The notes under the pieces are model-generated. The model was not told where the DNA came from, made no database searches, and worked only from the letters and a program-made list of their open reading frames with translations. This document shows, one piece after another, positions 2,926-22,199 of a stretch of 64,000 bases of DNA. Position 1 is the stretch's first letter. Each line of letters begins with the position of its first letter. This DNA is from an uncultured virus (IMG/VR IMGVR_UViG_3300045815_000012) (Duplodnaviria; Heunggongvirae; Uroviricota; Caudoviricetes). Location: IMG/VR virus record IMGVR_UViG_3300045815_000012, one strand, 5' to 3'. Position numbers and translations under genes: made by a program.

Positions 2926-3570
2926 TTAATCTAATAGTGATCTAATATGATCCTTGCAAGAATAAGCATGCCCGAGAAACGTCCTTTCTAACATTTGGTC
3001 TGCAGTTAAACCGCCATGCCCGGTAACTAAACAAAGATGATATACATCGCAAAACATCAAAATATAAGTAGTAATCTCCTCATCGCTTTCATCAATTTTT
3101 AAATATATCCGAAATGGGTTTTGCTTTTTTTCTCTTTCATAGTATGGAACACCATCTACCTTAAAGATAGTATTGTTATCCTCGCTTAATAACTCTTTAT
3201 GACCGTATAGTTTTAATACATCCCGTAGCCTCTTAACATTAAACTTATTAAATGCAACCGACTCAGTATTATCGCAAACATACTCAATATTATTAACAAT
3301 CTCATTCAACGTTTTTTTAGTTGATTCACTAACATTTTCTTTATCTACAAAATTTGTAAATTTTAAAGGAAAGTTTGTTTTAGATTCTAGAAAAAGCGAG
3401 GAGATAGTAATTACCGCTCTTTTTTCTGGTCTAGTAAGAAAAATTTCTCCACCGTTTTTTAATTTTGATTTGATATTAATAGTTGAAAGAACTTCTAACT
3501 TTTCTTGTATTTGCTTTTCTCTTGTCTTTATATTCTTTTTATTTTGAATGTCAAAATTAAAAGACTTCAA
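2926..3570 (-). CDS. Putative toxin partner of the Panacea antitoxin
   Basis: Overlaps and follows the DUF4065 gene; basic 214-aa protein. Confidence 0.55.
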   Translation of the reverse strand: MKSFNFDIQNKKNIKTREKQIQEKLEVLSTINIKSKLKNGGEIFLTRPEKRAVITISSLFLESKTNFPLKFTNFVDKENVSESTKKTLNEIVNNIEYVCDNTESVAFNKFNVKRLRDVLKLYGHKELLSEDNNTIFKVDGVPYYEREKKQNPFRIYLKIDESDEEITTYILMFCDVYHLCLVTGHGGLTADQMLERTFLGHAYSCKDHIRSLLD

Positions 3571-4063
3571 GTTTATATTCCTCTATAATGGATTCTTTAT
3601 TCATCTCTCCTTGACCATCATCGAACGCCCTTTTCCATTCCAAGTCTTCATGTGTTCGCTCAACCAATGTGAAATCACCCATTTCATCTGTCTGATGGAT
3701 AACTTGTATCAAAAGCTCTTTTATAGAATCTTCTTGGTCATTCGCAGGTTGCCATATTTCAGAAGATTCAATAACATCCTGATGATATTTATTATTTTTG
3801 TAAATTTCTCTTATGACTGGACCGTACTGCCATGCCTCAAAATTTTCTTTAAATAGATGTTTGGGATAATCAGCACTACCTTCAAAATGTTTTTCTTCAA
3901 CATTTTCATTATTTAATAGTCCATATGTTGCCCCGTAAAATGCGAATAAAAAATATAATGTCTTTTGAAGTCGTAACGGAGTCATTTTTCTAATAGAGTT
4001 GTCACATACAAATTTAGCTAAGACATTAATGTTATCAAATACAACTTCTTGGTTTTCATCCAT
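3557..4063 (-). CDS. Panacea (DUF4065/SocA/GepA-like) antitoxin
   Basis: TPLRLQKTLYF...FEAWQYGPV...THEDLEW signature. Confidence 0.9.
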   Translation of the reverse strand: MDENQEVVFDNINVLAKFVCDNSIRKMTPLRLQKTLYFLFAFYGATYGLLNNENVEEKHFEGSADYPKHLFKENFEAWQYGPVIREIYKNNKYHQDVIESSEIWQPANDQEDSIKELLIQVIHQTDEMGDFTLVERTHEDLEWKRAFDDGQGEMNKESIIEEYKLEVF

Positions 4064-10960: not shown

Positions 10961-13900
10961 TTAGAAGCCACCTCCTATCGTATAGCCTAATTTATTCAAA
11001 TCGCTCCCCATCAAATCATTTGCAGCATTTCCAACCGCTTCACTGGTTATTCCACTTTCCTTGCTCAATATCGCTCTCAAAATTCGCATCAGATCACTAT
11101 GTTGCTTTTGTTGTTGCTTAATCAGTGTTACCAACTCTGCTGTATTATCAACGCCAGCGGACTGTTTCGAACTATTTTTATTATCCCCAGCCAGAAATGC
11201 TAAAGCTTGTCCCATTAGTTCTATCGCTCTCGTTTTGCGAGTTAAGGGAATCACCATTTCCGGTTTGTTTCCTTCACCTGCTCTATAAAGACCATCTTTA
11301 TTGATTAAGCCCCCATTTTCGTAACCATGTCCTCGGCCGATCACGCCTAGCATATTCGCTCCGTATCGATTTTTGGCATAACGGATTGCTGCCAACATGT
11401 TATCAAAACCGTTCATAATATTACCGTGTCCTGGAAAAGCATTTGCTGCAAAAGTTCCTGGCTTAGTCTGTAGAAGTCCAGTAGCATTTCCATCTGCCAA
11501 TCCATCGTTACCTCCGATTGCAGAAGGGTTACCACCAGATTCTGTTTGGATTTGAGACATCCAGGCATTCACATATGCTTGAGAAGTGGGTAGTCCATTC
11601 ATTTTCAGTGCTTTCTTAATAGAAGGACGCCAGCGTTCAACAGAAGCCCCACTTGGCGTAGGAAGTCCTCCTGCCACGTCCGTTCCAGCTTTAAATATGT
11701 TTCCTGATCCCAAAGAACCGTTCAAATGAATATGATCATAATGATCGCCATCTGGCCAAGGGACCCATTGTCCTGTTGCAGCTTGGCCTGACATTCCCAC
11801 ACGGTCACGTACCCTACCATTCGTAATCACATAAGCAATCTGTTTAGGGAATTTCTCGAAGGCCCAATTTGCTGCTTCCGTGTATCTAGGGCTTCCGTAA
11901 GGATAACCCGAGATATCTAACGCTTGATGCTTACCATGCCAATAAGGATCTCCCGGTCTGTATCCAGAAGTGATAGTTAGTCCTCCAAATTTTGACATAA
12001 CTTTTTGTGCAATATCCACTAAGTATTGGTATACATTATTGGCATTCATAGCTCCATCAAAACTGCCACCACCAAACGAATCTTCAACTTGCTTTTGTGC
12101 AAAAGGATAAGCCGCGCTTGTCATTAACTTAACGCCATCTTTTGTCATTCTCTTCCAAGGTTCCGCGATACTATTGTAGTCAATTCTTTGGTCTACAACT
12201 TTCCTAAACGCTCCCTCATCATCAATCAAATCAAAGATATCAAAGTCATCCGTTCCATTGGCATAATGCGGAATATCGAAACCTTTCTTTAATTTCTTAG
12301 TAAGACTTGCATTCAGTACTTGCGCCCCTTTAGGAAGGTTGACCAATAGATCCTTTCCTTTGGCAATAAAACCACGGCCATCAGGCATCTGAACATACTC
12401 TTCATGAACAGGCCCTTTTTGATCGTTGATCATTGCTAATCCGCCAGGGTGTCCGTCTGTTCCCTTTGAATATTGTGGAACAGTCCAGTTTCCTAATTTC
12501 TTGTCTGATTCAACCTCTTTTAGAACATAGTTAACACCGCCGATTACTCCATTAACACCTTTACCGATTCCACCAACCATCTTGTTCGCTACACCGTTCA
12601 TCGTTGATGATAGCGAACCACCCATTGAGTTTAACCCGTTGATTAGCGATTGCATCAGATAGTTTCCGGCGCTGTAAAAACCGCCGTTTTTGGAACGGAG
12701 ATTATTAATTGAATCATTTCCCAGCTGGTTAACTCTTGCAATAAACGATCCATACAACGAGTTCCAACCGTTCAAATTATTCTGTTGCCAAGTACGGCCA
12801 TTGTTGTACATAGGCGCATTGTAACTCCGAAGAGTCGTCATCGCTTGATTACAGAAGGTCTTGATTAGATTGATAAATGTTCCTGTTAAACTGTTCCAAC
12901 CATTCATTAAGTTTCTATTCCACGTAACACCTTGCAAATAATTCGGATTGTTTTGATTTTTTAATTGGGTTAAGTAGTTAGAAATAAATATGGACTCACT
13001 CTTCATGTAAGACGGAACAATTGAATTCCAGCCATTCATAAGATTCGTCATCCACATTGTGCCGATCGCAGTATACTCTTCTCCTTGAGCCAATAGCTGA
13101 TCTGGTGTTATCGAAGCCACTCCTGTTGATCCTTGAGTATTTGGGATAACAGATTTTTCAGTCATCATCCCAACTGTATCCGATTCAGCTGATTGAGGCT
13201 GCATAGTTTTGAACGTCAGAATTAATTCATTTATGGCTGCTATTAATTCAGTAATTTGAGAGTCTTGCGTGATCACTTCGCCTATACCACCGGCATAGCG
13301 AGGTATCAATTTTGCTGTTTGAGAGGCTTTTAATACAGACGAGCCTTTAGGTAAATCAAGCAAAGTATTTCTTTCCTGTGGAACGAATGCTCGCCCGTTA
13401 GGAAGTTTAACTAGTTCTTTATACTTTGAACCAATCTGGTCGTTTACGAGAGCTAAACCGCCTTTATGGTAGTTAGTGCCGTTTGCGTAGTTGCCAGTGA
13501 TATTGTTCCCTTTTTGATTGAATGCCTTTTTAACTTTTTCCCATGTATCATCAAAAAATGCGGTCAATTTGAAACTGATTGTTTTATCTTGTAAGTTCGC
13601 AACTTCTCTATAGGATTTAACGGCTTTTTCCACATTTGGAGTTACATCATCTTTGGCAGTCATCGTCTTTTCAGGAACAGGAATTTGATTGTACCCACCA
13701 GGGCCAGTAAGTTTCTCTCGGGCAGCTTTTTCTTTGTTTAAAAGATCAGAGTTGTCAGCATTAAGGATTTTGTTAGCAGGGTTGTGATTTTTGTTATAAT
13801 CGTCAATGTCAGCTTTCGCCTGTTTGCCTTTTGCAAGGACATCATAATTTTCGCCGAACATTTGCTTCAATAAGGGTAATATTTGATTGTATTGTTCAGT

Positions 13901-16900
13901 ACTTATTACACCTTCTTGAATTTTTGCATTCAAATCTTCATTGTTTGCTAACATATATTTGATATTATCTGGAACTTGAGTCCAAGCAGTGTAGGATTCA
14001 TTTGAAGCAAATATCTTTTCTGTTAAGTCTGTATTGTCAGCTAATAACTTTTTCTGATTTACTGGTAGAGTATTCCACTGATTGATTTGCTCTTGTGTGG
14101 TGAATAACTTATAAACTGCATCCGCATTGTCAATACCTAACGTTTTTCGATCTAAGACATATTGGTTCCACGCACCCATAGCATTGATAGTTTCATAAAG
14201 CTCTAGCTTTGCTTCATCGCCATTGACCAATAACATTTTTTCGGTCAACCACAACTGATCCCACTTGCCAGCTTCACCCATAGCAATTGCGACTTCTTCT
14301 TTTGCGTTAGAAGTTAATTTAGCTTCCTTAACCATAAATTTGAGCTGATTCCATCCATCATCAGTCTGAGCGATTTCAGTTAAAACATCAGTCATGTTTG
14401 TTTTAACTTCACCAGTCTTAGGATCAAGACTTAAAGCGTTCCATTGCATATCAGCATCGGAAGTTCCTTTTGCGAATAAGCTTAGGTCTTTAGTGGTATC
14501 TTTGACACTGCTAGACACTAATGCAGTCACTTCTTCAACGTTGTATCCGTACTTTTCCCATTTGAACCAAACCGAATCTAATGAAGATCCTGATTTTTCA
14601 GTAAGATTACCAAGAGCCGTAATCATTTCACTAGTGCTTTTCTTATAATTTTCTTTTAAATCGTTTAATAATCTTTTTCTGACAGATGAGCTAAGAGTTT
14701 CGTTACTTTCAATCTCTTTACGTTGCTTATCATAAGAGGTCTTTTCCTTATCCAAGGCTTTTTCTAACGTTTTAATTCGTGTACTTACTTCTTTTTCACT
14801 CAACTTCGACAAATCATCCTGATAAGCTGTTTCGATTGCCAACCGCTGCGACTTAGTAAAACCAGCTGCTTTCAATTGATCATCGGATAAGTTAGCGTAC
14901 GACGCTCTGATATATTGCATTTCTTGATCAGATAATTGTCGATTATTATCAGAAGCATTTTTGTATATTCCGTTAATCTTATCGATTTGTGCTTTAACCG
15001 TTTCGGCTGTTTTCTCATCAACTTTTTTCTGCGCGGCAATAACTTGATCATACCAAGCTTTTGTTTCTTCATCCAAAAAGCTTAATTTAGTAATCTTCTC
15101 ACGACGTTTTTCTTCTTTTTCCAGCGTTCCTTCAATCGCGTCTTGAATACCTTTATTTGCCTTTTTGATTTTTTCAGCATTGGTATTGACACCGTCTTGG
15201 TACTCGTTCATATACTGAACGCCTTTTTCTTTTAACTCGTTCGATTTTGTGATTACTTTATCTTGGGTGCCAGTAACTTCTGTGCCCCACTTGCCACCAG
15301 ATAATTGGTAATCATCATAGGCCTTTTTACCTACAACTACAGCACCAGCTACCGCTCCTAATGCTACTAATCCAATTCCAATGGGTCCTGCCAAGCCAGC
15401 GATAGACGCTCCTAACCCAGCCACACCACTTGCCCCAGCAGCAGTAGCAGAAGCAGTACCTACTGATGCAACAGTCGTACTAAATCCTGCAATTGCTTTC
15501 TTCTCAGCTGCTTTAGCGGCTAAGTCTACAATCCCACCAGTCAATTTGCCGACAGCAGTTTGAGTCTTACCTATTACTGTAGCCCCGGTGCCAAATAGTT
15601 TTAATGTTGGACCGACAGCGGCCGCCATAAGCCCCCATTTAAGAATGTTCTGTTGAGTTTCATCATCCAACTCAGAGAATTTGTTGATCAACTGAGTTGC
15701 TTTCTCAAGTATAGGTGTAAACACTGGAAGCAATTTCTCTCCAGCGGTAATGGCTAAAACATTTAACGATTCTTTAAATCGAGCCACCTTATTGGCTGGT
15801 AAATCATTCATTGATTTTGCAATTTCTTTAGTGGCACCGTTAGCGTTATAAGTTTCTTTAGTTAACCCTTTTAACGCGTCACCGCCTTGCCCAACTAATA
15901 CGTTCATTGCTGATTGAGATTCGGTGCCGAAGGCTAAGGCTATTGCAGATGTACGTTGCGCATCCGTCCAGCCTTCAGTGTTTTGCTTAATCTTATTCAA
16001 CATATCTGGAAGAGTTAACGTACCGTTTTTAAACTCATCTACAGAAATACCTAGTTTTTCAAATCCGGCAATGTTTTGTTTTGATGGCTTCAATAAACGA
16101 GTTAATGCTCCACGTAATGCAGTCCCAGCTTTTTCTCCGCCGATACCAGCATCACTTAGCAGACCAATTGCAGAAGCAGTTTCTTCTACATCCATGCCTA
16201 AGCTATTCGCTACTGGTCCCACATACCCCATTGCTAGTCCTAAATCTGAGAAACCAGCAGAAGTTGCATTAGCCACATAAGTCAACGCATCCGTCACACG
16301 TGTTGCGTTCTTAACAGTGCTATTGTAATCTTTGCCTTTTAAATTAAACTGACTGATTACCTCGGTTGTTACATTCATTACATCGTTGAAGTCGTCCCCG
16401 GATGCTTTGGTAGCATCTAAAATAGAAGGCATTACACCAAGCGTTTGATTCGCGTCATAGCCTTTACGAACAATTTCTGCTAAACCAGTATTTATTTCAG
16501 TAGTAGAAACGCCATATTCCTTCGCCCATTTTTTCGAGCTAACAGACATCTGATCTAATTGATTGCGATATTCGGTTGTCATTTTCCCACCGTTGGTCAA
16601 CAATGGACCAATTTCACCAATTTGAGTTTGAAAATCAACAGCCTTCTTAGTAGCCAATCCAAACCCAGCAGCGATCGGCGCTGTAACAGACATGGTCAAT
16701 GTGCTTCCTATGCTAGACATTTTTTTACCGAAAGATTCAATTTTCTTTCCTGACTTAATCCACTGATCAGATTGTGCTTTAAGTTTCCCAGTTACACCTT
16801 CTGTTTCTACCTTCATGCGGGCAATTTGTCCTGTAGTGGTTTTCATCTGAGCTTCATAACTAGCAGACTTAGCAATCGCTTGATTCAATTCATTTGCATA

Positions 16901-17191
16901 TTTAGCAGTGGAAGCCGTTGCTTTACCATTCGCGTCGAAGCTTTTATCATACTGAGTCTTTAACTTACTCATGTACTTTTCGTTAGAGCTAAGCGTTTTG
17001 CTAAGTCCGTCGTATTTTGTTTGCAAAGCGCCCAATTTATCACCCGATGAATTCATTACTTTCATCTGTGATTGCATGGCTTTCATATTGTACGCAACAC
17101 TTTTTTTTGCTCCATCAAGTCCTTTTGAAAAGGCAGAACTGTCTAGGTCTAAGATAACCTTCATATTACCTAACGGTTTCCCGTTTGCCAT
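10961..17191 (-). CDS. Tape measure protein with C-terminal peptidase-like and SLT domains
   Basis: 2076 aa; TP901-type core; TSGYR...HYDHIH; IQTESGGNP...GLLQ. Confidence 0.95.
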   Translation of the reverse strand: MANGKPLGNMKVILDLDSSAFSKGLDGAKKSVAYNMKAMQSQMKVMNSSGDKLGALQTKYDGLSKTLSSNEKYMSKLKTQYDKSFDANGKATASTAKYANELNQAIAKSASYEAQMKTTTGQIARMKVETEGVTGKLKAQSDQWIKSGKKIESFGKKMSSIGSTLTMSVTAPIAAGFGLATKKAVDFQTQIGEIGPLLTNGGKMTTEYRNQLDQMSVSSKKWAKEYGVSTTEINTGLAEIVRKGYDANQTLGVMPSILDATKASGDDFNDVMNVTTEVISQFNLKGKDYNSTVKNATRVTDALTYVANATSAGFSDLGLAMGYVGPVANSLGMDVEETASAIGLLSDAGIGGEKAGTALRGALTRLLKPSKQNIAGFEKLGISVDEFKNGTLTLPDMLNKIKQNTEGWTDAQRTSAIALAFGTESQSAMNVLVGQGGDALKGLTKETYNANGATKEIAKSMNDLPANKVARFKESLNVLAITAGEKLLPVFTPILEKATQLINKFSELDDETQQNILKWGLMAAAVGPTLKLFGTGATVIGKTQTAVGKLTGGIVDLAAKAAEKKAIAGFSTTVASVGTASATAAGASGVAGLGASIAGLAGPIGIGLVALGAVAGAVVVGKKAYDDYQLSGGKWGTEVTGTQDKVITKSNELKEKGVQYMNEYQDGVNTNAEKIKKANKGIQDAIEGTLEKEEKRREKITKLSFLDEETKAWYDQVIAAQKKVDEKTAETVKAQIDKINGIYKNASDNNRQLSDQEMQYIRASYANLSDDQLKAAGFTKSQRLAIETAYQDDLSKLSEKEVSTRIKTLEKALDKEKTSYDKQRKEIESNETLSSSVRKRLLNDLKENYKKSTSEMITALGNLTEKSGSSLDSVWFKWEKYGYNVEEVTALVSSSVKDTTKDLSLFAKGTSDADMQWNALSLDPKTGEVKTNMTDVLTEIAQTDDGWNQLKFMVKEAKLTSNAKEEVAIAMGEAGKWDQLWLTEKMLLVNGDEAKLELYETINAMGAWNQYVLDRKTLGIDNADAVYKLFTTQEQINQWNTLPVNQKKLLADNTDLTEKIFASNESYTAWTQVPDNIKYMLANNEDLNAKIQEGVISTEQYNQILPLLKQMFGENYDVLAKGKQAKADIDDYNKNHNPANKILNADNSDLLNKEKAAREKLTGPGGYNQIPVPEKTMTAKDDVTPNVEKAVKSYREVANLQDKTISFKLTAFFDDTWEKVKKAFNQKGNNITGNYANGTNYHKGGLALVNDQIGSKYKELVKLPNGRAFVPQERNTLLDLPKGSSVLKASQTAKLIPRYAGGIGEVITQDSQITELIAAINELILTFKTMQPQSAESDTVGMMTEKSVIPNTQGSTGVASITPDQLLAQGEEYTAIGTMWMTNLMNGWNSIVPSYMKSESIFISNYLTQLKNQNNPNYLQGVTWNRNLMNGWNSLTGTFINLIKTFCNQAMTTLRSYNAPMYNNGRTWQQNNLNGWNSLYGSFIARVNQLGNDSINNLRSKNGGFYSAGNYLMQSLINGLNSMGGSLSSTMNGVANKMVGGIGKGVNGVIGGVNYVLKEVESDKKLGNWTVPQYSKGTDGHPGGLAMINDQKGPVHEEYVQMPDGRGFIAKGKDLLVNLPKGAQVLNASLTKKLKKGFDIPHYANGTDDFDIFDLIDDEGAFRKVVDQRIDYNSIAEPWKRMTKDGVKLMTSAAYPFAQKQVEDSFGGGSFDGAMNANNVYQYLVDIAQKVMSKFGGLTITSGYRPGDPYWHGKHQALDISGYPYGSPRYTEAANWAFEKFPKQIAYVITNGRVRDRVGMSGQAATGQWVPWPDGDHYDHIHLNGSLGSGNIFKAGTDVAGGLPTPSGASVERWRPSIKKALKMNGLPTSQAYVNAWMSQIQTESGGNPSAIGGNDGLADGNATGLLQTKPGTFAANAFPGHGNIMNGFDNMLAAIRYAKNRYGANMLGVIGRGHGYENGGLINKDGLYRAGEGNKPEMVIPLTRKTRAIELMGQALAFLAGDNKNSSKQSAGVDNTAELVTLIKQQQKQHSDLMRILRAILSKESGITSEAVGNAANDLMGSDLNKLGYTIGGGF

Positions 17192-17206: not shown

Positions 17207-17697
17207 CTAAATAGATTTGACGAAGTCTTTTAGGTCGACTTCTTTTGATTTTTCTTTTTTCGGTCTTACACAAGCAATTTCAATTAACGTGTCAAAAGAA
17301 TTATTTTCAATATCAGAGAGAGACCATCCCTGTTTAGTTAATTCTCGGCACAATTCCAGATACATTTCTTCGGCCTCTTCCGGAGTTACTTTTTTGCATC
17401 TGGATCAGGATTATCTTCAATTCCCATTACTTGCCCTAATAAATCATCCAAAGTTTCCCGAGTTTTTTCAGAAGGTAATCCTTCCAAAATCTGATCTGTA
17501 GTCAATTTGTCTGCTTTGAAAATTTCCACTGCAAAAGCTAAATAAATATCTAACTGATCCCACAGCATGATTTTTTCTGCATTTAATTTTTTAATTGTTT
17601 GCAAAGCTAAACGATAGTCTTTCCCGGTTGTTTCTAATTTCTCAAAGACTTCTTTTTTGCCTTTTTTATTTTTTAATTCAATTCGAACTTGTGCCAT
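17207..17697 (-). CDS. Tail assembly chaperone G (17386-17697) and GT via -1 frameshift
   Basis: A AAA AAG at 17395-17389; -1 frame open for 60 codons to TAG at 17207. Confidence 0.85.
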
Positions 17698-17757
17698 CTA
17701 TAATTTCCTCCTAATATTTTCAAATAAAAAAGAGGACTACTACAGTCCTCTAAAAAC

Positions 17758-18105
17758 CTACGCTGGTACTAATGCAAGCAAATCTGATTTAAGTGTCTTT
17801 CCGGTGTAATCAATACCATGTGCTGTCAACCATGCTTTTATTTCTTCAACGGTATTCGCATTTGTTGGCTTTACATCTCCTTCAGGATCAAAGCTAGGTG
17901 TTTCCGGCTCTTGTTCGGGCAATGTCTTAAATGCTGGGATATCAACTTTCATTGATTCAACATCATTAACCAACCGAGTTGCTTGATAGTCTCCCTTTGC
18001 TACTTGTGTATTTGCTGCAATACCAGTGATAGAAAGAGGGCTTGTGCCCTCCACTACTTTTGTTCCATCTTTTTTATAAATTCTAAATGTATCTACCACA
18101 CTCAT
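17758..18105 (-). CDS. Truncated Ig/FN3-like domain plus HeH/LEM-like domain (decoration protein)
   Basis: FRIYKKDG...KVDIPAFKT; TVEEIKAWL...KSDLLAL. Confidence 0.7.
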   Translation of the reverse strand: MSVVDTFRIYKKDGTKVVEGTSPLSITGIAANTQVAKGDYQATRLVNDVESMKVDIPAFKTLPEQEPETPSFDPEGDVKPTNANTVEEIKAWLTAHGIDYTGKTLKSDLLALVPA

Positions 18106-18171
18106 TCTCCTAACTTAATGCGATTGTTGCCCCTGTCGTCGTCGGGGTAACTGTCCCAACGACTGGGCTTG

Positions 18172-18756
18172 TTACTCCCCCGCTGGAAAAGCCATTGTGC
18201 GCATTGCTGTAATTGACGCCTCTTCATCTCCAACATATTTAGCAACCGATTGCCCCTTTGCATCGCCATCAGCATCATTGGCAATTGCAGAAAATACATA
18301 CTCCTCTGCTTCAGGTTCAAAGGCTTCATTTGTTGTAGTATTCAAATTGATAGCTTCACGACTAAACTTACCTTTAAAGATTGTCAACATAGCTGTATCC
18401 CCACCGAGATCTTCTGACTCCATAAGCAATGCGCAATATGGCGGCTCCGTGTCTTCGCCAAGAAAGCTGATCTTGTTTGCATCAGTTTTGTAACCAAGAA
18501 TCTTGTCATTTAGATCTTCTGGCAAATCTAACAATCCAAACGTTGCAGAAATGTCCCCTGTTCCTTTTTGCGAGATATAGTAAGCAATATTTGATCCATA
18601 TACCTTTGTAGCTTCTTTTGATAGGCCGCTAATTTCAGCGGATACAGTGGCCCCTTTATCTTGTTTACCTTCAATAACAAATTGATTAGCTGTTGGAATT
18701 TTACCGTCCTTATCAAAAATTCCGATTGTCATTTTTTTAAATCCGACTAAAGTCAT
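18172..18756 (-). CDS. Major tail (tube) protein, phi13 family
   Basis: Size, position, MTLVGFK...PPYCALLMES. Confidence 0.9.
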   Translation of the reverse strand: MTLVGFKKMTIGIFDKDGKIPTANQFVIEGKQDKGATVSAEISGLSKEATKVYGSNIAYYISQKGTGDISATFGLLDLPEDLNDKILGYKTDANKISFLGEDTEPPYCALLMESEDLGGDTAMLTIFKGKFSREAINLNTTTNEAFEPEAEEYVFSAIANDADGDAKGQSVAKYVGDEEASITAMRTMAFPAGE

Positions 18757-18828
18757 AATTTATTTCCTCCTAATTTTGACAACAAAAAAAGACACGAGTT
18801 TTCGTGTCTTAATTCCTGTTATTCTGTT

Positions 18829-19239
18829 TTAATATTGTGTATCGTAAATTCGTGTATTCCCGTCATATCGTCGAGCGTCTACATAACGTCTAGTCTCCGA
18901 GAAATATTCGTCTAAACCTTGGCCGCTCACTTGGCCAAAACCAAGCTTCTTCATCTCTTTTTTAATTTCATACTGCATTTGTTTGCATGTCGCTCTGTAT
19001 TTTGACTCCACATCAATTTGTATCAGGTGTTCGATAGAAAGCTCTTTATCGCTCCCGTGGAATGCTTCGTTCGGTACATCTGCAGGTCGAATTGTGATAA
19101 ACGCACCTGTTTTGTCAGCCGTTTCAGGTTGCTCGTAAAACTTAATCCTGTACTCTTCTGAATCAGAGTTGTAAGTCATATCGTGGATATAAGAGTTTGA
19201 GCATAGTGCCTCATAAATTGTCATCAACATATCTTTCAT
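18829..19239 (-). CDS. Tail terminator/completion protein
   Basis: Synteny. Confidence 0.7.
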   Translation of the reverse strand: MKDMLMTIYEALCSNSYIHDMTYNSDSEEYRIKFYEQPETADKTGAFITIRPADVPNEAFHGSDKELSIEHLIQIDVESKYRATCKQMQYEIKKEMKKLGFGQVSGQGLDEYFSETRRYVDARRYDGNTRIYDTQY

Positions 19240-19646
19240 AACTTATTCCTCAACTCCCTAGCTACTGTATTAAAGTAAATTTTTTCAGATGATTTCAGTG
19301 ATTTTGTTATTACTCCAAATCCACGCGGCTTTATTTGACGACCATTTCTGGTGTATCCCCACTCGTTCAAATGGATAATTCGATACCGCTGTTTTGGACC
19401 GTTCCAGCCAATTTCAGCTTCGGTGTTTTCATTGCGGTACGTTGCTTTCTTTTTGACGACTTCATCGATAGTAGCGCCAGTGTCTTTAAAAGACATCATT
19501 GCCCATTTCATTTGTTCCTCAACATCAGAAGCCCCTTCGTCAACCGCTTCACGAGCAATTTTTCGTGTTTTAGTGGACCCTAAACGTTTTTCCATCTCAC
19601 GTAGCGTTTCATTTACACCTTTAAAATCAACATTATTCATCGTCAT
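19236..19646 (-). CDS. HK97 gp10-like neck protein
   Basis: DTGAT...IHLNEWG motif. Confidence 0.75.
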   Translation of the reverse strand: MTMNNVDFKGVNETLREMEKRLGSTKTRKIAREAVDEGASDVEEQMKWAMMSFKDTGATIDEVVKKKATYRNENTEAEIGWNGPKQRYRIIHLNEWGYTRNGRQIKPRGFGVITKSLKSSEKIYFNTVARELRNKL

Positions 19647-19998
19647 ACACCGCTAACAAAATCGTGATGAATCGGTTGTCAGTGAAATCATTTCGAACGT
19701 CAACGATGTTCCAACGAATGCCTGAATATCTCCTATCCATAACCTCTACATAATGCTTGTTTGAAACAATGTAGTCAGTTTGCGGATCTCTAATCGTGAG
19801 AGTTACTGCTTGTTTAGTCGTCTTTGAGTTCAAAATTTCCAAGTCTTTCATTGAGGGGTTATAAATCTCAGCGAAACAATTAAAAATGGTCTGCTTCTCT
19901 TGCTCGCCTGGCTCAGGGCCTTTATGAGGTCGATATTGAAAAAATTCAACAGGTGTTCTCATAGCGCCGTTATTGACTTTGGGTTTCTGGTACTTCAT
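19633..19998 (-). CDS. Head-tail adaptor/closure protein
   Basis: Synteny; MRTPVEF...WNIVDV. Confidence 0.75.
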   Translation of the reverse strand: MKYQKPKVNNGAMRTPVEFFQYRPHKGPEPGEQEKQTIFNCFAEIYNPSMKDLEILNSKTTKQAVTLTIRDPQTDYIVSNKHYVEVMDRRYSGIRWNIVDVRNDFTDNRFITILLAVYDDE

Positions 19999-20272
19999 CT
20001 TCGCCATCAGCTCCCTCTTCATAATTTGCTAAAGAGACAGCCATTAATTCCGATTGAAAGTTATCATTGAAAAATTCTAACGAATCATTGTAGACATATC
20101 GGCTGCGTTCAATCACGAGTTCGCGAATTTCAGGATTTGAAACATTGTCAGTCCCACACCATCGCTTAACAGCTACTTTTGAACTTTTCAAAATATTTTC
20201 TAAGTTTTCATCGTCAGCAGTATGAAAGATTCTCATCCGCGATTTGAAATCTTTTAGCAATTTCTCATCCAA
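19970..20272 (-). CDS. Head-tail connector (gp6-like)
   Basis: FKSRMRIFHTADD; follows the capsid gene. Confidence 0.8.
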   Translation of the reverse strand: MDEKLLKDFKSRMRIFHTADDENLENILKSSKVAVKRWCGTDNVSNPEIRELVIERSRYVYNDSLEFFNDNFQSELMAVSLANYEEGADGEDEVPETQSQ

Positions 20273-20349
20273 TAGAAACGCCCCTTTCTATCGCAGTGCA
20301 ATTGTTGCTCCGTCACTTGTCGGTTCAACATTAATAACTGCGGGGGCCT

Positions 20350-21465
20350 CTATTTTCCCTCGGATACTTTTAATCCCCAAACTGCAGCAGCCTTATCATC
20401 TTTAGCTTTCCCATAAGCAAACTGTTTAGCAGTGTATAAATCCATGTCTTCAATCGCTAATGTTTGATCGTATTTACGTAAAGTAATGCCCCCGCCAATA
20501 TATGCATCGTATCGGCCGTTTACGAACGTTAAAACTTTTTCAGTTGCTTGCGCTAATGATTCAACAATTTTCAAATTGTAAGGTAACGCAGTTACATATA
20601 CTCCTTGCGCATTTAATGAAGTATATTGACGTTTGACATCCCAAGCATCACTAGGATTAACTACCATGACAACTTTTCCATCTACAGCAACTGCATGACC
20701 TTTTTCGTCAGTTGAATGATGTTTGTAAACATTCGTTAGTTCTTTAACGGTCGTTGCTGAATCAGCAAATGTTAAATCGCCCATTGAAGTTTTTTCTGGA
20801 TAAACACCACCAGTAATGGCTACACCTTCTTGAACTTGACGATTTAAACCAATCGGCTTGTCATTTCCATCTCCTGATAAAAAAGCAGCCTCTAAAGCCA
20901 CTGCAAAAGCTTCATCAATTTGAGTAGCCACAAATGATTCAATCCAAGCTGGTCCGAAGTCTTTCAAATCCTTAGGAACAACTACAAACGCCGTCAATTT
21001 GCTTTGAATTGCTTCTTCTTCACTGAACGCTGCATCTAACTGACCTTTGATCTCGCCGAAGATTTTTCCCCATACAGCAACACCACTTGTTTCAGATTTC
21101 AAGAATTTCAATCGTAGCCCTGCGTTTACTAAACCGATTTCAGCTAATAGTGAATGGGCAGTAGTTAAGTTCTCAAAGATTCGATCAATGGTTTCTTGCG
21201 GCAACAATTTTTCTTCTTTATAACCGACGTCCGTGCTGATAGCATTAAAAAATTTACGCTCACGAGCAGATAATTTCGCATCTGCCGGATTTTCAGCAAT
21301 TAATCCTTCTGCCTCAGCACGCGCTTGTTTTTTTGCTTCGTTCAGCAATTCATCGAGCATTGCACCGTATAGTTCATTTTGTTTTTCAGCTGGCTCGTTA
21401 TTATTAACAGCAGCTAAGAAGTTGTCACGAATTGTTTTGAATTCGTTTGATAGTTTCATAGTCAT
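20350..21465 (-). CDS. Major capsid protein (HK97 fold)
   Basis: 371 aa after the protease; slippery G GGA AAA at its end. Confidence 0.92.
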   Translation of the reverse strand: MTMKLSNEFKTIRDNFLAAVNNNEPAEKQNELYGAMLDELLNEAKKQARAEAEGLIAENPADAKLSARERKFFNAISTDVGYKEEKLLPQETIDRIFENLTTAHSLLAEIGLVNAGLRLKFLKSETSGVAVWGKIFGEIKGQLDAAFSEEEAIQSKLTAFVVVPKDLKDFGPAWIESFVATQIDEAFAVALEAAFLSGDGNDKPIGLNRQVQEGVAITGGVYPEKTSMGDLTFADSATTVKELTNVYKHHSTDEKGHAVAVDGKVVMVVNPSDAWDVKRQYTSLNAQGVYVTALPYNLKIVESLAQATEKVLTFVNGRYDAYIGGGITLRKYDQTLAIEDMDLYTAKQFAYGKAKDDKAAAVWGLKVSEGK

Positions 21466-21491
21466 TCAGTATGACCTCCTTATTTTTTGTA

Positions 21492-22199
21492 TTAAAAAAA
21501 GAACCGTTTCAAACCAGCATTTTCTGGTTCAATCGATTCTTGTTTTTTAGTATTTAGTTTTTCTGCTACTTTATTTGCCAATTCATCTAAATCAAACTGC
21601 GGTTTTAACTTTTCTGCCAATTTTGAAATCGCGTCTGGCGGAATAACCGGCGAGACACTTGCGACTAGTAAAGGTGCTTCTTCATTTTGAAACATTACTT
21701 TGTCCGCAAATCCTTTCTCTACTGCTTGTTCTGCTGTCAACCAGGTTTCATGATTCATTAGTTCAAGTAAGTTTTCTTTTTCAAGACCCGTTTTACCGAT
21801 ATAAGCATTCGCGATCGACAAATTATAGTTCTTTAAGACTTCTGCTTCATGAGCCAACGCTCTGTGATCACCGCTTGCACCACTAGAAACATTGTGAATC
21901 ATAATTTGGGCGGTTGGACTAATTTCAATTGAACTACCAGCCATCGCAATAACGCTTGCCGCACTAGCTGCAATCCCTACAATTTTCACTGTCACTTCAC
22001 CTTGATATGCACGCAAAGCCGTGTATATCTCACTTCCAGCATAGACATCTCCTCCACCCGAATTAATCACAATTTCTAATGGTTCATTGGTTTCGGGTAA
22101 AACAATGTCACGCGGTGCGGTGCTATCCATTTCGAACAAATCGTAGATCCATTTTTGATTGTTCGAAATAATCGTTCCTTTAATTTCCAGTTTCGTCAT
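21492..22199 (-). CDS. ClpP-like prohead protease
   Basis: INSGGGDV, AASAAS, IMIHN, ETWLTAEQA. Confidence 0.92.
   Translation of the reverse strand: MTKLEIKGTIISNNQKWIYDLFEMDSTAPRDIVLPETNEPLEIVINSGGGDVYAGSEIYTALRAYQGEVTVKIVGIAASAASVIAMAGSSIEISPTAQIMIHNVSSGASGDHRALAHEAEVLKNYNLSIANAYIGKTGLEKENLLELMNHETWLTAEQAVEKGFADKVMFQNEEAPLLVASVSPVIPPDAISKLAEKLKPQFDLDELANKVAEKLNTKKQESIEPENAGLKRFFF

What the first reader, a model, noticed from the sequence alone, without database searches (positions are those of the whole stretch)
17758..20359. Capsid and tail tube gain homologous -1 frameshift tails that may complete a separately encoded, split Ig/FN3 domain
Seen: the capsid gene ends G GGA AAA TAG and its -1 frame adds IEAPAVINVEPTSDGATIALR (stop 20288). 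The tail tube gene ends GCG GGG GAG TAA, followed by a GTCGTTGGG/CCCGACGAC stem, and its -1 frame adds GVTSPVVGTVTPTTTGATIALS (stop 18110). The two hidden peptides share P.V..V.PT..GATIAL. The next gene (17758-18105) looks like an FN3/Ig fold lacking its first strands, plus a HeH/LEM tail. Known: frameshifts append whole Ig domains to capsid or tail proteins in SPP1, A2 and Listeria phages. Inference: here the frameshift supplies only a two-strand tag, and one decoration protein docks on both head and tail by strand complementation.
Basis: partly seen in the sequence, partly recalled or inferred. Interest (0 to 1): 0.8.

Follow-up and report, generated by a model that had tools for sequence, protein, structure and literature searches.

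The report
Split FN3 domain docks decoration protein
In this Enterococcus-type phage, ribosomal frameshifting very probably gives some capsid and tail-tube subunits a 21-22-residue tail that is the missing first two strands of a small neighbouring protein's FN3 domain, so one decoration protein could plug into both head and tail.

Summary
The capsid gene (20350-21465, minus strand) and the tail-tube gene (18172-18756) each end in a slip site. A -1 shift there adds 21 or 22 residues.

The two tags are homologous. A tag profile found only these two in 14 kb, on both strands.

The next ORF (17758-18105) is an FN3-like domain that starts at strand C, followed by a linker and a sub-threshold HeH motif.

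The same layout, two tags and one truncated "catcher", recurs in Enterococcus, Brochothrix and Staphylococcus phages. The tags there are reached by -1 shift, +1 shift or in frame. The tag frame carries a coding signature.

Tag plus ORF read as one chain folds as a whole FN3 domain. A docking test gave weak support only.

No paper found in seven searches describes the split. The phiEf11 virion shows two capsid-protein bands. The small homologue of vB_EfaS-271 is abundant by mass spectrometry.

This scan has noted similar split-Ig tags on other DNA. Binding in trans is inferred, not shown.

The parts
20350..21465 (-). Major capsid protein gene, 371 aa, frame 0
   Evidence: Pfam Phage_capsid E 3.9e-12; PHROG 10 major head protein E 1.3e-58
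20353..20359 (-). Slippery heptamer G_GGA_AAA directly before the TAG stop (20352-20350)
   Evidence: Read from the sequence. GGGAAAATAG stands before 13 of the 72 tags tabulated
20288..20353 (-). Capsid tag in the -1 frame: IEAPAVINVEPTSDGATIALR plus the TAG stop. Equivalent to FN3 strands A and B
   Evidence: tag profile E 3.8e-11; aligns with strands A-B of complete domains
20275..20351 (-). Predicted RNA structure starting at the capsid stop codon; candidate frameshift stimulator
   Evidence: MFE -28.8 kcal/mol for the 96-nt stretch 20275-20370, z -3.5, 2 of 200 shuffles fold as well
18172..18756 (-). Tail tube protein gene, 194 aa, frame 0
   Evidence: Pfam Phage_TTP_1 E 1.1e-17; PHROG 88 major tail protein E 5e-44
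18172..18183 (-). GCG GGG GAG TAA: proposed single-tRNA -1 slip on G_GGG (18181-18178) next to the stop
   Evidence: GGGG[G/A]AG-TA[A/G] stands before 40 of the 72 tags. In some genomes it also ends the capsid gene (L025, L030)
18110..18178 (-). Tail-tube tag in the -1 frame: GVTSPVVGTVTPTTTGATIALS plus the TAG stop, which overlaps the next gene's Shine-Dalgarno sequence
   Evidence: tag profile E 1.6e-11; coding signature in this frame
18138..18163 (-). 9-bp stem GTCGTTGGG / CCCGACGAC inside the tag-coding stretch
   Evidence: in the MFE fold; the 86-nt stretch has z -1.9, and 6 of 200 shuffles fold as well
17758..18105 (-). Catcher or decoration ORF: 115 aa from ATG 18105, more likely 113 aa from GTG 18099. 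Shine-Dalgarno GGAG at 18110-18107
   Evidence: PHROG 341 E 1.4e-18 on residues 4-75; homologues start M-x-D/E-T-F
17917..18099 (-). N-terminal half-FN3 domain (strands C, C', E, F, G), about residues 3-63
   Evidence: AlphaFold2 pLDDT 90, strands 6-11, 16-20, 40-46 plus short ones; alignment to complete domains
17767..17853 (-). C-terminal helix-extended-helix (HeH-like) cargo, residues 85-113, after a Pro/Glu-rich linker
   Evidence: Pfam HeH E 3.1e-4, 20.8 bits, below the 28.9 cut-off; helices 86-95 and 106-112 in the model; PHROG 12526 E 1.2e-17
17731..17751 (-). Terminator-like hairpin with a T run just after the catcher ORF. A second one at 18810-18789 lies just upstream of the tail-tube gene

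Best explanation
A natural split FN3 domain is used as a docking device.

1. Most ribosomes end the capsid and tail-tube proteins at the frame-0 stops.
2. A fraction slip back one base, by tandem slippage on G_GGA_AAA in the capsid gene and by P-site slippage on G_GGG in GCG_GGG_GAG_UAA in the tail-tube gene. These ribosomes add a 21- or 22-residue beta-hairpin that corresponds to strands A and B of an FN3 domain.
3. The next ORF is translated on its own, from its own Shine-Dalgarno sequence. It gives a protein whose N-terminal 60 residues are the other five strands (C, C', E, F, G), followed by a Pro/Glu-rich linker and a small HeH-like motif.
4. The half-domain binds the hairpin on the tagged subunits and so completes the sandwich. 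This hangs the cargo on the outside of both head and tail.
5. Frameshift efficiency sets how many subunits are decorated.

Shown here: the sequences, their conservation, the coding signature of the tag frame, and the structural fit in models.

Inferred: that the shifts happen in this phage, that binding is in trans and non-covalent, that the complex sits on the virion, and what the HeH-like cargo binds. It may bind a polyanion such as teichoic acid or DNA, but that is a guess.
For: (1) Both tags exist as described and are homologous.

(2) The layout is conserved:
- BtpYZU02: both tags by -1 shift at GGGAAAG.
- phiEf11: capsid tag by -1 shift at AAAAAAA; tail-tube tag in frame.
- SANTOR1: both tags by +1 shift at CCC_TAG; the catcher ORF follows the capsid gene.
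- Staphylococcus phage 3A: both tags lie in the +1 frame after TTACCCAGCTAA.
- Of the 72 tags tabulated, 69 are in the -1 frame, 2 in the +1 frame and 1 in frame.

(3) A profile over 124 loci gave 151 hits, all on the gene strand. Seventy loci had exactly two hits and 11 had one. Several contigs were fetched twice. There are 32 distinct tag pairs, and 12 remain after removing pairs at 85% identity or more.

(4) Coding signature. Among 22 distinct tags with the G-run slip motif, pairwise codon differences in the tag frame were 1231 synonymous and 1302 non-synonymous. The two control frames gave 563/2119 and 140/2467. Two capsid-tag groups showed the same pattern.

(5) The domain is truncated as a rule. 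Of the 99 representative hits, 85 had a domain of 15 bits or more on re-scoring, and 74 of those 85 have fewer than 20 residues before strand C. Complete domains (P0059, P0090, P0039) carry a tag-like A-B stretch and a short loop of a few residues before T-F-x-I-Y.

(6) The ORF alone models with pLDDT 90 but gives no Foldseek match at E<=0.001. A tag and ORF that lie in one frame in L053, read through TAG as Q, model with pLDDT 85.8 and pTM 0.71. The tag forms strands 8-15 and 18-24. All rows listed by Foldseek (ranks 1-50) are FN3-type domains, the best being 2e3v_A with E 9.9e-4 and TM 0.68/0.64.

(7) Docking test of catcher residues 1-68 with the 37-residue -1-frame peptide holding the tail-tube tag. 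The verdict was weak support.
- Score 0.55, best of 3 controls 0.02.
- The runs agree in at least 97% of contacts; the partner's pLDDT is at least 66.
- The mark was reached by 116 of 157 solved complexes and 2 of 215 mismatched pairs. At 0.60 or under it was reached by only 18 of those 157 and by both mismatches.
- The counts hold only roughly, because my own alignments were used.

(8) The two tags of one genome are more alike (mean identity 0.63) than capsid and tail-tube tags of different genomes (0.48). None of 10,000 shuffles reached this over 12 genomes.

(9) Experiments in print:
- phiEf11 virions show two capsid-protein bands, about 41 and 38 kDa, both from ORF10 (Results and Discussion read).
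- In vB_EfaS-271 the 66-aa ORF right after the capsid gene gave 131 PSMs at 93.9% coverage, against 128 PSMs for the tail-tube protein (Table 2 and Table S6 rows).
Against: - No direct evidence of frameshifting, of the extended products or of binding exists for this phage.
- The docking result is only weak support, and 14 of the partner's 37 residues are out-of-frame filler.
- The capsid tag itself was not docked.
- In phiEf11 the extension peptides were not detected by MS, and the authors call the frameshift speculative.
- The phiEf11 tail-tube protein, which carries the tag in frame, ran at 28-30 kDa. That is not the sum with ORF16, so any complex does not survive SDS-PAGE. ORF16 was not among the six bands analysed.
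- The vB_EfaS-271 sample was a purified lysate, not gradient-pure virions. I linked its ORF_11 to this family only by position, size, annotation and its close relatives LY0322 and Ec-ZZ2.
- The tail-tube slip site is not a canonical X_XXY_YYZ heptamer, and its stem-loop is barely better than shuffles.
- AlphaFold2 gives the truncated protein high confidence on its own, so the models do not say it needs a partner.
- The within-genome likeness of tags could come from gene conversion or shared ancestry. Only 5 of 12 capsid tags have their own genome's tail-tube tag as the best match.
Confidence: 0.65

Rival explanations
1. Completion in cis. After the -1 shift, a second recoding event at the tag's stop carries ribosomes on into the 115-aa ORF. 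This would be a +1 shift at AGU_UAG_G here, and readthrough where tag and ORF share a frame. The result is a covalent tail-tube-FN3-HeH fusion like SPP1 gp17.1*. The capsid tag would then be a relic or serve another purpose.
For: The tag's stop lies 4 to 10 nt before the ORF's start, and the ORF is exactly +1 from the tag frame in the window and its Enterococcus relatives. In BtpYZU02, phiEf11, L053 and L060 the tag and ORF share a frame and are separated by one or two stops and a few codons. The single-chain reading folds well.
Against: The event needed differs from lineage to lineage: +1 here, readthrough of TAA or TAG elsewhere, and a 60-nt gap with stops in the ORF frame in SANTOR1. Every catcher ORF keeps its own Shine-Dalgarno sequence and start. 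The capsid tag in the window is followed by the connector gene, and in SANTOR1 the tail-tube tag is followed by non-coding DNA. Yet both are conserved with a coding signature. In vB_EfaS-271 a 66-aa product was identified as such.
Confidence: 0.07
2. The tags are made but act on their own. For example, they could be hairpins that add to a neighbouring subunit's sheet and stabilise the capsid and tail. The truncated FN3 protein would then be completed by something else or work unpaired.
For: Short C-terminal extensions can stabilise lattices (general knowledge, not tested here). The docking prediction is only weak. AlphaFold2 models the catcher confidently alone.
Against: The tags align with the A-B strands of complete domains of exactly this subfamily, and the catcher lacks exactly those strands. 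Tags and catcher co-occur: two tags in each sufficiently long locus found with the catcher. In other phages the catcher proteins themselves end in a tag, which makes sense only if tag and catcher pair.
Confidence: 0.1
3. The catcher binds the tags only transiently, as an assembly chaperone or timer for the frameshifted subunits, and is not a lasting virion decoration.
For: It sits beside the tail assembly chaperone genes. No virion data exist for this phage.
Against: Relatives carry typical surface cargo such as Big_2 domains in place of HeH. The small homologue is abundant in a purified vB_EfaS-271 lysate.
Confidence: 0.1
4. No frameshift takes place. The conserved stretches after the two stops are RNA elements or decaying remnants of once-complete domains.
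For: Both stretches can fold. No extension peptide has been detected anywhere.
Against: Synonymous changes are enriched in the tag frame only. The peptide is conserved where the nucleotides differ widely, across Enterococcus, Brochothrix and Staphylococcus. The phiEf11 tail-tube gene encodes the tag in frame. Slip motifs sit exactly at the frame-0 stops in 71 of 72 cases, and the last is in frame.
Confidence: 0.03

Closest known systems
Frameshift-appended Ig-like domains on phage capsid and tail proteins (Lactobacillus phage A2, T3 gene 10, Listeria phages A118, A500 and PSA, SPP1 gp17.1*)
   Same: A programmed -1 or +1 shift at the 3' end of the major capsid or tail gene gives a minority product with an Ig-type surface module. 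The direction of the shift varies between relatives. This comes from passages of the recoding review PMC5009743 and from SPP1 as cited in PMC5221750.
   Different: There the shift adds a whole domain, for example 9.1 kDa in SPP1. Here it adds only 21-22 residues, two strands. The remaining five strands and the cargo are a separate gene product that serves two different structural proteins.
Enterococcus phage phiEf11 ORF10 capsid-protein doublet (PMC5221750)
   Same: It has the same tag (KIEAPKVESVIPTTDGASIVLS), reached by -1 shift at AAAAAAA_TAG. Two capsid-protein bands about 3 kDa apart were seen, and a 21-aa extension was proposed.
   Different: The authors did not connect the extension with ORF16 or with the in-frame copy at the end of ORF15. 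They state that no overlapping frame explains ORF15's mobility.
Donor-strand complementation in chaperone-usher pili (recalled textbook knowledge)
   Same: An Ig-type fold that is incomplete in one polypeptide is completed by strands given by another. Catcher proteins that themselves end in a tag (P0073, P0077, phage K ORF96) could chain head to tail like pilins.
   Different: Pilins lack one C-terminal strand and need a periplasmic chaperone and an usher. Here two N-terminal strands, two-thirds of one sheet, are missing. The donor is a C-terminal tail, and no chaperone or usher is evident.
Self-docking decoration proteins with Ig-like modules (T4 Hoc, T5 pb10)
   Same: A small accessory protein displays an Ig-type or other surface module on the assembled capsid (PMC5292684 seen as a search listing only; otherwise recalled).
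   Different: Those proteins carry their own capsid-binding domain and recognise the lattice. Here recognition would be by folding together with a peptide encoded in the capsid and tail genes themselves.
SpyTag/SpyCatcher, an engineered split CnaB2 domain (recalled)
   Same: A short peptide tag and a truncated Ig-like partner rebuild one domain.
   Different: That system is engineered and locked by an isopeptide bond. No conserved Lys/Asp/Glu triad is evident in the alignments. The phiEf11 gel shows no adduct-sized band among the six bands analysed.

Membership tests
Programmed frameshift products of phage capsid and tail genes that carry an Ig-like module | Slip-prone sequence at the 3' end of the gene, next to the frame-0 stop | tested here: met
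   G_GGA_AAA_TAG (capsid) and GCG_GGG_GAG_TAA (tail tube). The same motifs recur in relatives: 71 of 72 tags follow a slip motif.
Programmed frameshift products of phage capsid and tail genes that carry an Ig-like module | The alternative frame is conserved as protein | tested here: met
   Synonymous/non-synonymous counts of 1231/1302 in the tag frame against 563/2119 and 140/2467 in the control frames.
Programmed frameshift products of phage capsid and tail genes that carry an Ig-like module | The extension encodes a complete Ig-like domain | tested here: not met
   The extension is 21-22 aa and equals strands A and B only.
Programmed frameshift products of phage capsid and tail genes that carry an Ig-like module | Both short and long products are present in virions | not testable with these tools
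   The only evidence is the phiEf11 capsid-protein doublet, without extension peptides.
FN3 fold | Seven-strand sandwich, with sheets ABE and C'CFG (topology recalled) | tested here: met
   Met only for tag plus ORF: strands 8-15, 18-24, 35-40, 43-48, 52-55, 68-74 and a broken last strand. All rows listed by Foldseek (ranks 1-50) are FN3-type. The ORF alone gives no match at E<=0.001.
FN3 fold | Match to Pfam fn3 (PF00041) at its cut-off | tested here: not met
   No fn3 hit for P0136. P0039 scores 13.4 bits against a cut-off of 25. This is a subfamily without a Pfam model.
HeH/LEM domain (PF12949) | Score at or above the gathering cut-off | tested here: not met
   20.8 bits against 28.9, residues 85-113. 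The model shows two helices, 86-95 and 106-112. Three homologues carry a precomputed PF12949 hit. I therefore call it HeH-like.
Donor-strand complementation systems | An incomplete Ig-type fold in one chain is completed by strands of another chain | tested here: inconclusive
   The incompleteness is shown. Completion in trans has only a weak-support prediction: 0.55 against a best control of 0.02.
Donor-strand complementation systems | Dedicated chaperone and usher | not tested
   None is apparent among the neighbouring genes. I did not search for one.

The most novel reading that the evidence does not exclude
Phages of Firmicutes share a modular natural tag-and-catcher system built on one split FN3 domain.

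The two-strand hairpin is a portable docking tag. It is written onto capsid, tail-tube and other virion proteins in frame or behind -1 or +1 frameshift sites, so recoding efficiency dials the occupancy.

The five-strand half carries interchangeable cargo (HeH-like, Big_2 or none). In some phages it carries a tag of its own, so that catchers can chain head to tail as pilins do.

One catcher gene thus decorates head and tail at once.
Probability: 0.55. Interest if true: 0.85.

Novelty: new variant of a known kind. Interest (0 to 1): 0.78.

Why it matters
If the docking is real, it is a third way for phages to decorate virions, beside fused domains and self-docking decoration proteins. Recognition would be by co-folding of a domain split between two genes.

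It would explain several puzzles:
- the many short "major tail protein" ORFs annotated next to capsid or tail-tube genes. The SANTOR1 small ORF alone has relatives in 472 phage records, 354 of them Staphylococcus and 111 Enterococcus;
- the puzzling 21-aa frameshift extension proposed for phiEf11;
- why one protein could sit on both head and tail.

It links recoding efficiency directly to the stoichiometry of a non-covalent complex. It also offers natural, small and probably orthogonal peptide-protein pairs for displaying cargo on phage particles.

It is readily testable: one tryptic peptide, one pull-down and one cryo-EM map.

Tried and rejected
- Megablast of 17700-21500 against the phage collection found no match.
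I repeated it with the 12-row alignment A3, which found 7 loci.
- The window's own assembly is not held, so I did not count further copies in the genome.
- Foldseek of the 115-aa model alone gave no match at E<=0.001. The best was E 0.05, among mixed Ig and FN3 chains.
- Pfam gives the half-domain and the rebuilt domain no family above cut-off.
- PDB by sequence: profile A1 hits only through the Big_2 cargo columns (profile positions 53 onward; one negligible hit at E 0.86 lies earlier). P0136 has no hit below E 0.48. No solved chain of this split domain was therefore found.
- The NF5 Brochothrix phage cryo-EM paper (passages) mentions no frameshift and reports a capsid without decoration. NF5 was not checked for the system, so this says nothing either way.
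- Sequencing runs: 24 runs hold the stretch. Contigs of four RNA-library runs are identical to the window over 17700-20400, with no inserted or deleted letters. Contigs drop rare variants and DNA may be present in those libraries. This shows neither transcription nor absence of transcriptional slippage, and the runs may be this DNA's own source.
- Transcriptional slippage is considered unlikely for GGGAAAA and CCC_TAG sites, but it was not tested.
- A covalent SpyCatcher-like lock was considered. No conserved triad is seen in alignments A1 and A2.
- Literature: seven searches found no description of a split Ig or FN3 domain shared between a frameshift extension and a separate phage gene. Subscription journals and bioRxiv supplements are outside what I could see.
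- Pfam on the 2076-aa tape measure protein gave only PhageMin_Tail.

Full report
**What is in the window.** All genes of the region lie on the minus strand, in the usual siphophage order:
- major capsid protein, 20350-21465: Phage_capsid E 3.9e-12; PHROG 10 E 1.3e-58
- connector and neck genes
- tail tube protein, 18172-18756: Phage_TTP_1 E 1.1e-17
- a 115-aa ORF, 17758-18105
- tail assembly chaperone, 17386-17697: Phage_TAC_19 E 1.7e-19, with its -1-frame partner at 17207-17365
- a 2076-aa tape measure protein

Close homologues of the 115-aa protein are named from Enterococcus species. The nearest genome loci are also Enterococcus, 97% identical in E. viikkiensis. The host is therefore most likely an Enterococcus. 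The window's own assembly is not held.

**Checking the observation.**
- The capsid gene ends GAG GGA AAA TAG. The -1 frame continues for 21 codons (IEAPAVINVEPTSDGATIALR) to TAG at 20290-20288, just before the connector gene.
- The tail-tube gene ends GCG GGG GAG TAA. The -1 frame gives GVTSPVVGTVTPTTTGATIALS and stops at TAG 18112-18110, which overlaps the GGAG of the next gene.
- The stem GTCGTTGGG/CCCGACGAC is in the minimum-free-energy fold, but the stretch is only modestly more stable than shuffles (z -1.9). The stretch after the capsid stop does better (z -3.5).
- A profile built from such tags finds exactly these two sites in 14 kb of the window, on both strands.

One correction concerns the start of the ORF. 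ATG 18105 stands 1 nt from the GGAG, while GTG 18099 stands 7 nt from it. Homologues begin M-x-D/E-T-F. The protein is therefore probably 113 aa long.

**The same design elsewhere.** This evidence carries the most weight.

tblastn of the 115-aa protein finds 139 phage records. I read three annotated ones in all frames.
- Brochothrix phage BtpYZU02: both the capsid and the tail-tube genes end GGGAAAG plus stop. Their -1 frames give KVDSPVVAKVNSTTTGANVELS and KVTIPLVGAVNATSTGANVNLT. The catcher ORF follows in the tag's own frame, after TAA.
- Enterococcus phage phiEf11: the capsid tag is reached by -1 shift at AAAAAAA_TAG, while the tail-tube protein ends with the tag in frame.
- SANTOR1: both tags lie in the +1 frame after CCC_TAG. 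The 73-aa catcher ORF follows the capsid gene, not the tail-tube gene.

A scan of viral contigs gave 44 loci. In every locus that held the half-domain and had enough flank, the profile found one tag at the capsid gene's end and one at the tail-tube gene's end, and nothing else.

Of the 72 tags tabulated, 69 are in the -1 frame, 2 in the +1 frame and 1 in frame. Each stands right at the frame-0 stop, behind a short list of motifs:

| Motif | Number of tags |
|---|---|
| GGGG[G/A]AG-TA[A/G] | 40 |
| GGGAAAA-TAG | 13 |
| A-rich AAAA(G)CG/TG/CA-TAG | 13 |
| others | 6 |

After a second scan, 124 loci gave 151 hits, all on the gene strand. Seventy loci had two hits, 11 had one and 43 had none. The 43 are loci that matched only the HeH part, or divergent lineages. 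Several contigs were fetched twice. There are 32 distinct tag pairs, and 12 remain at under 85% identity.

Divergent lineages that the profile misses show the same design by eye: L057, L060, L062, L065, L079, Bacillus sp. JCM 19034 and Staphylococcus phage 3A.

**Are the tags translated?** Among 22 distinct tags with the G-run slip motif, pairwise codon differences were as follows.

| Frame | Synonymous | Non-synonymous |
|---|---|---|
| Tag frame | 1231 | 1302 |
| Control frame 1 | 563 | 2119 |
| Control frame 2 | 140 | 2467 |

The two capsid-tag groups behave alike. The phiEf11 tail-tube gene encodes the tag without any shift.

In print, phiEf11 virions show two capsid-protein bands of about 41 and 38 kDa, both identified as ORF10. 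The authors proposed the -1 shift and the 21-aa extension. They did not detect extension peptides and called the idea speculative. They did not relate the extension to ORF16 (Results and Discussion read).

**What the 115-aa protein is.** A search of 1.84 billion representative proteins with residues 1-70 gave 99 hits. On local re-scoring, 85 had a domain of 15 bits or more. Of those, 74 have fewer than 20 residues before strand C, so they cannot hold strands A and B. The other 11 have 20 or more residues before strand C, room for strands A and B; those I read in full (P0059, P0090, P0093, P0104, P0115) hold a complete domain.

The complete domains (P0059, P0090, P0039 and others) show, just before T-F-x-I-Y, a short loop of a few residues. 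Before that loop stands a stretch that aligns column for column with the tags.

AlphaFold2 models the protein with pLDDT 90. It shows strands 6-11, 16-20 and 40-46 with some short ones, a linker, and helices 86-95 and 106-112. Foldseek finds nothing for it at E<=0.001.

In locus L053 the capsid tag and the catcher ORF share a frame. I read its TAG as Q, and the 97-residue chain modelled with pLDDT 85.8 and pTM 0.71. The tag formed strands 8-15 and 18-24. All rows listed by Foldseek (ranks 1-50) were FN3-type domains, the best with E 9.9e-4 and TM 0.68/0.64.

By the textbook FN3 topology (recalled), strands A and B make two-thirds of the ABE sheet. The catcher alone would therefore expose its core.

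Pfam has no model for this subfamily, and no solved chain matches it by sequence. The C-terminal motif is HeH-like but below Pfam's cut-off, 20.8 against 28.9 bits. Relatives carry Big_2 domains or nothing in its place.

**Does the catcher bind the tag in trans?** The one docking job paired catcher residues 1-68 with the 37-residue -1-frame peptide holding the tail-tube tag. It returned weak support.
- Score 0.55, best of 3 controls 0.02.
- The runs agree in at least 97% of contacts, and the partner's pLDDT is at least 66.
- The mark was reached by 116 of 157 solved complexes and 2 of 215 mismatched pairs.
- At 0.60 or under it was reached by only 18 of those 157 and by both mismatches.
- The counts hold only roughly, because my own alignments were used.

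The capsid tag was not docked. Indirect support:
- The capsid tag cannot be completed in cis, because the connector gene follows it.
- The two tags of a genome are more alike (0.63) than capsid and tail-tube tags from different genomes (0.48; 0 of 10,000 shuffles over 12 genomes). Gene conversion would give the same result, and only 5 of 12 capsid tags match their own genome's tail-tube tag best.
- In several phages the catcher protein itself ends in a tag (P0071, P0073, P0077, P0084; L062, L065, L079). In Staphylococcus phage K there is a chain of three: ORF95 ends in a tag; ORF96 is catcher, Big_2 and tag; and an unannotated ORF is a catcher.

The small homologue of vB_EfaS-271 is a 66-aa ORF placed 125 nt after the capsid gene. 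It was found by MS in a purified lysate with 131 PSMs at 93.9% coverage. The tail-tube protein gave 128 PSMs and the capsid protein 1661 (passages, Table 2, and rows of Tables S3 and S6). I tie that ORF to the family by position, size and its close relatives LY0322 and Ec-ZZ2, not by its own sequence.

**Most likely mechanism.** I give about 0.65 to the following.
1. Frameshifting tags a subset of capsid and tail-tube subunits with the A-B hairpin.
2. The separately made half-domain co-folds with the hairpin.
3. This displays its cargo on head and tail.
4. Shift efficiency sets the occupancy.

The binding would be non-covalent. The phiEf11 gel shows no adduct-sized band among the six bands analysed, and no conserved isopeptide triad is visible.

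Four rivals are treated in their own sections: completion in cis by a second recoding event, tags acting alone, a transient chaperone role, and no frameshift at all. The varying frame relations between tag and ORF, together with the orphan tags, argue most strongly against completion in cis.

**Comparison with what is known.** Frameshifts that add whole Ig-like domains to capsid and tail proteins are well known: A2, T3, A118, A500, PSA and SPP1 (passages of PMC5009743). This case shares the recoding and the fold but fails the defining feature of a complete appended domain.

It works like donor-strand complementation in pili (recalled) without being a member of that system. Seven literature searches found no description of such a split.

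Earlier agents of this scan noted like arrangements on other DNA: D6-like phage-plasmids, a tail-terminator tag, and Twort. Those are unchecked AI notes, apart from my own look at phage K. They agree with my reading but are not independent evidence.

**Verdict.** I rate it a new variant of a known kind, with interest 0.78.

Noticed in passing
window 17386-17400 and 17207-17365 (minus strand): The tail assembly chaperone gene ends GCA AAA AAG TAA. A_AAA_AAG stands right before the stop, and the -1 frame runs on into the 52-aa ORF. This is the classic G/GT frameshift, so this late operon would use three -1 shifts at gene ends.
   Followed up: partly
window 18099-18110 (minus strand): The catcher ORF most likely starts at GTG 18099, not ATG 18105. 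The tag's TAG stop overlaps its Shine-Dalgarno sequence (TAGGAG), so frameshifted ribosomes terminate 4-10 nt before the catcher's start. This could couple catcher synthesis to tag synthesis.
   Followed up: partly
window 18810-18789 and 17751-17731 (minus strand); promoter-like site 18782-18755: Terminator-like hairpins bracket the tail-tube gene plus catcher ORF, and a promoter-like site stands just upstream of the tail-tube gene. The pair may form its own expression unit.
   Followed up: no
L126 (Staphylococcus phage K) 2319-3713: There is a chain of three genes. ORF95 ends in frame with a tag. ORF96 is catcher, Big_2 and tag. An unannotated 70-aa ORF at 3501-3713 is a bare catcher.
   Followed up: partly
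L125 (Staphylococcus phage 3A) 1220-1320 and 3380-3500: Both the capsid and the tail-tube genes end TTACCCAGCTAA. Both have a tag in the +1 frame (…PQKVNVTAKAKSAVISAE and …PQNVEVAVNSKSATVSAE). The catcher-Big_2 ORF follows the tail-tube gene. The same small ORF is found in 354 Staphylococcus phage records.
   Followed up: partly
L062, L065, L079; proteins P0071, P0073, P0077, P0084: Some catcher proteins themselves end with a tag-like hairpin. This would allow head-to-tail chains or rings of FN3 domains.
   Followed up: partly
L025, L030, L051: In some Enterococcus phages the capsid gene uses the tail-tube-type slip motif GGGGGAG-TAA instead of GGGAAAA-TAG. Slip site and tag seem to move together as a cassette.
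   Followed up: no
window 10961-17191 (minus strand): The tape measure protein is very long (2076 aa). Only a PhageMin_Tail Pfam match was found at E<=0.001.
   Followed up: no
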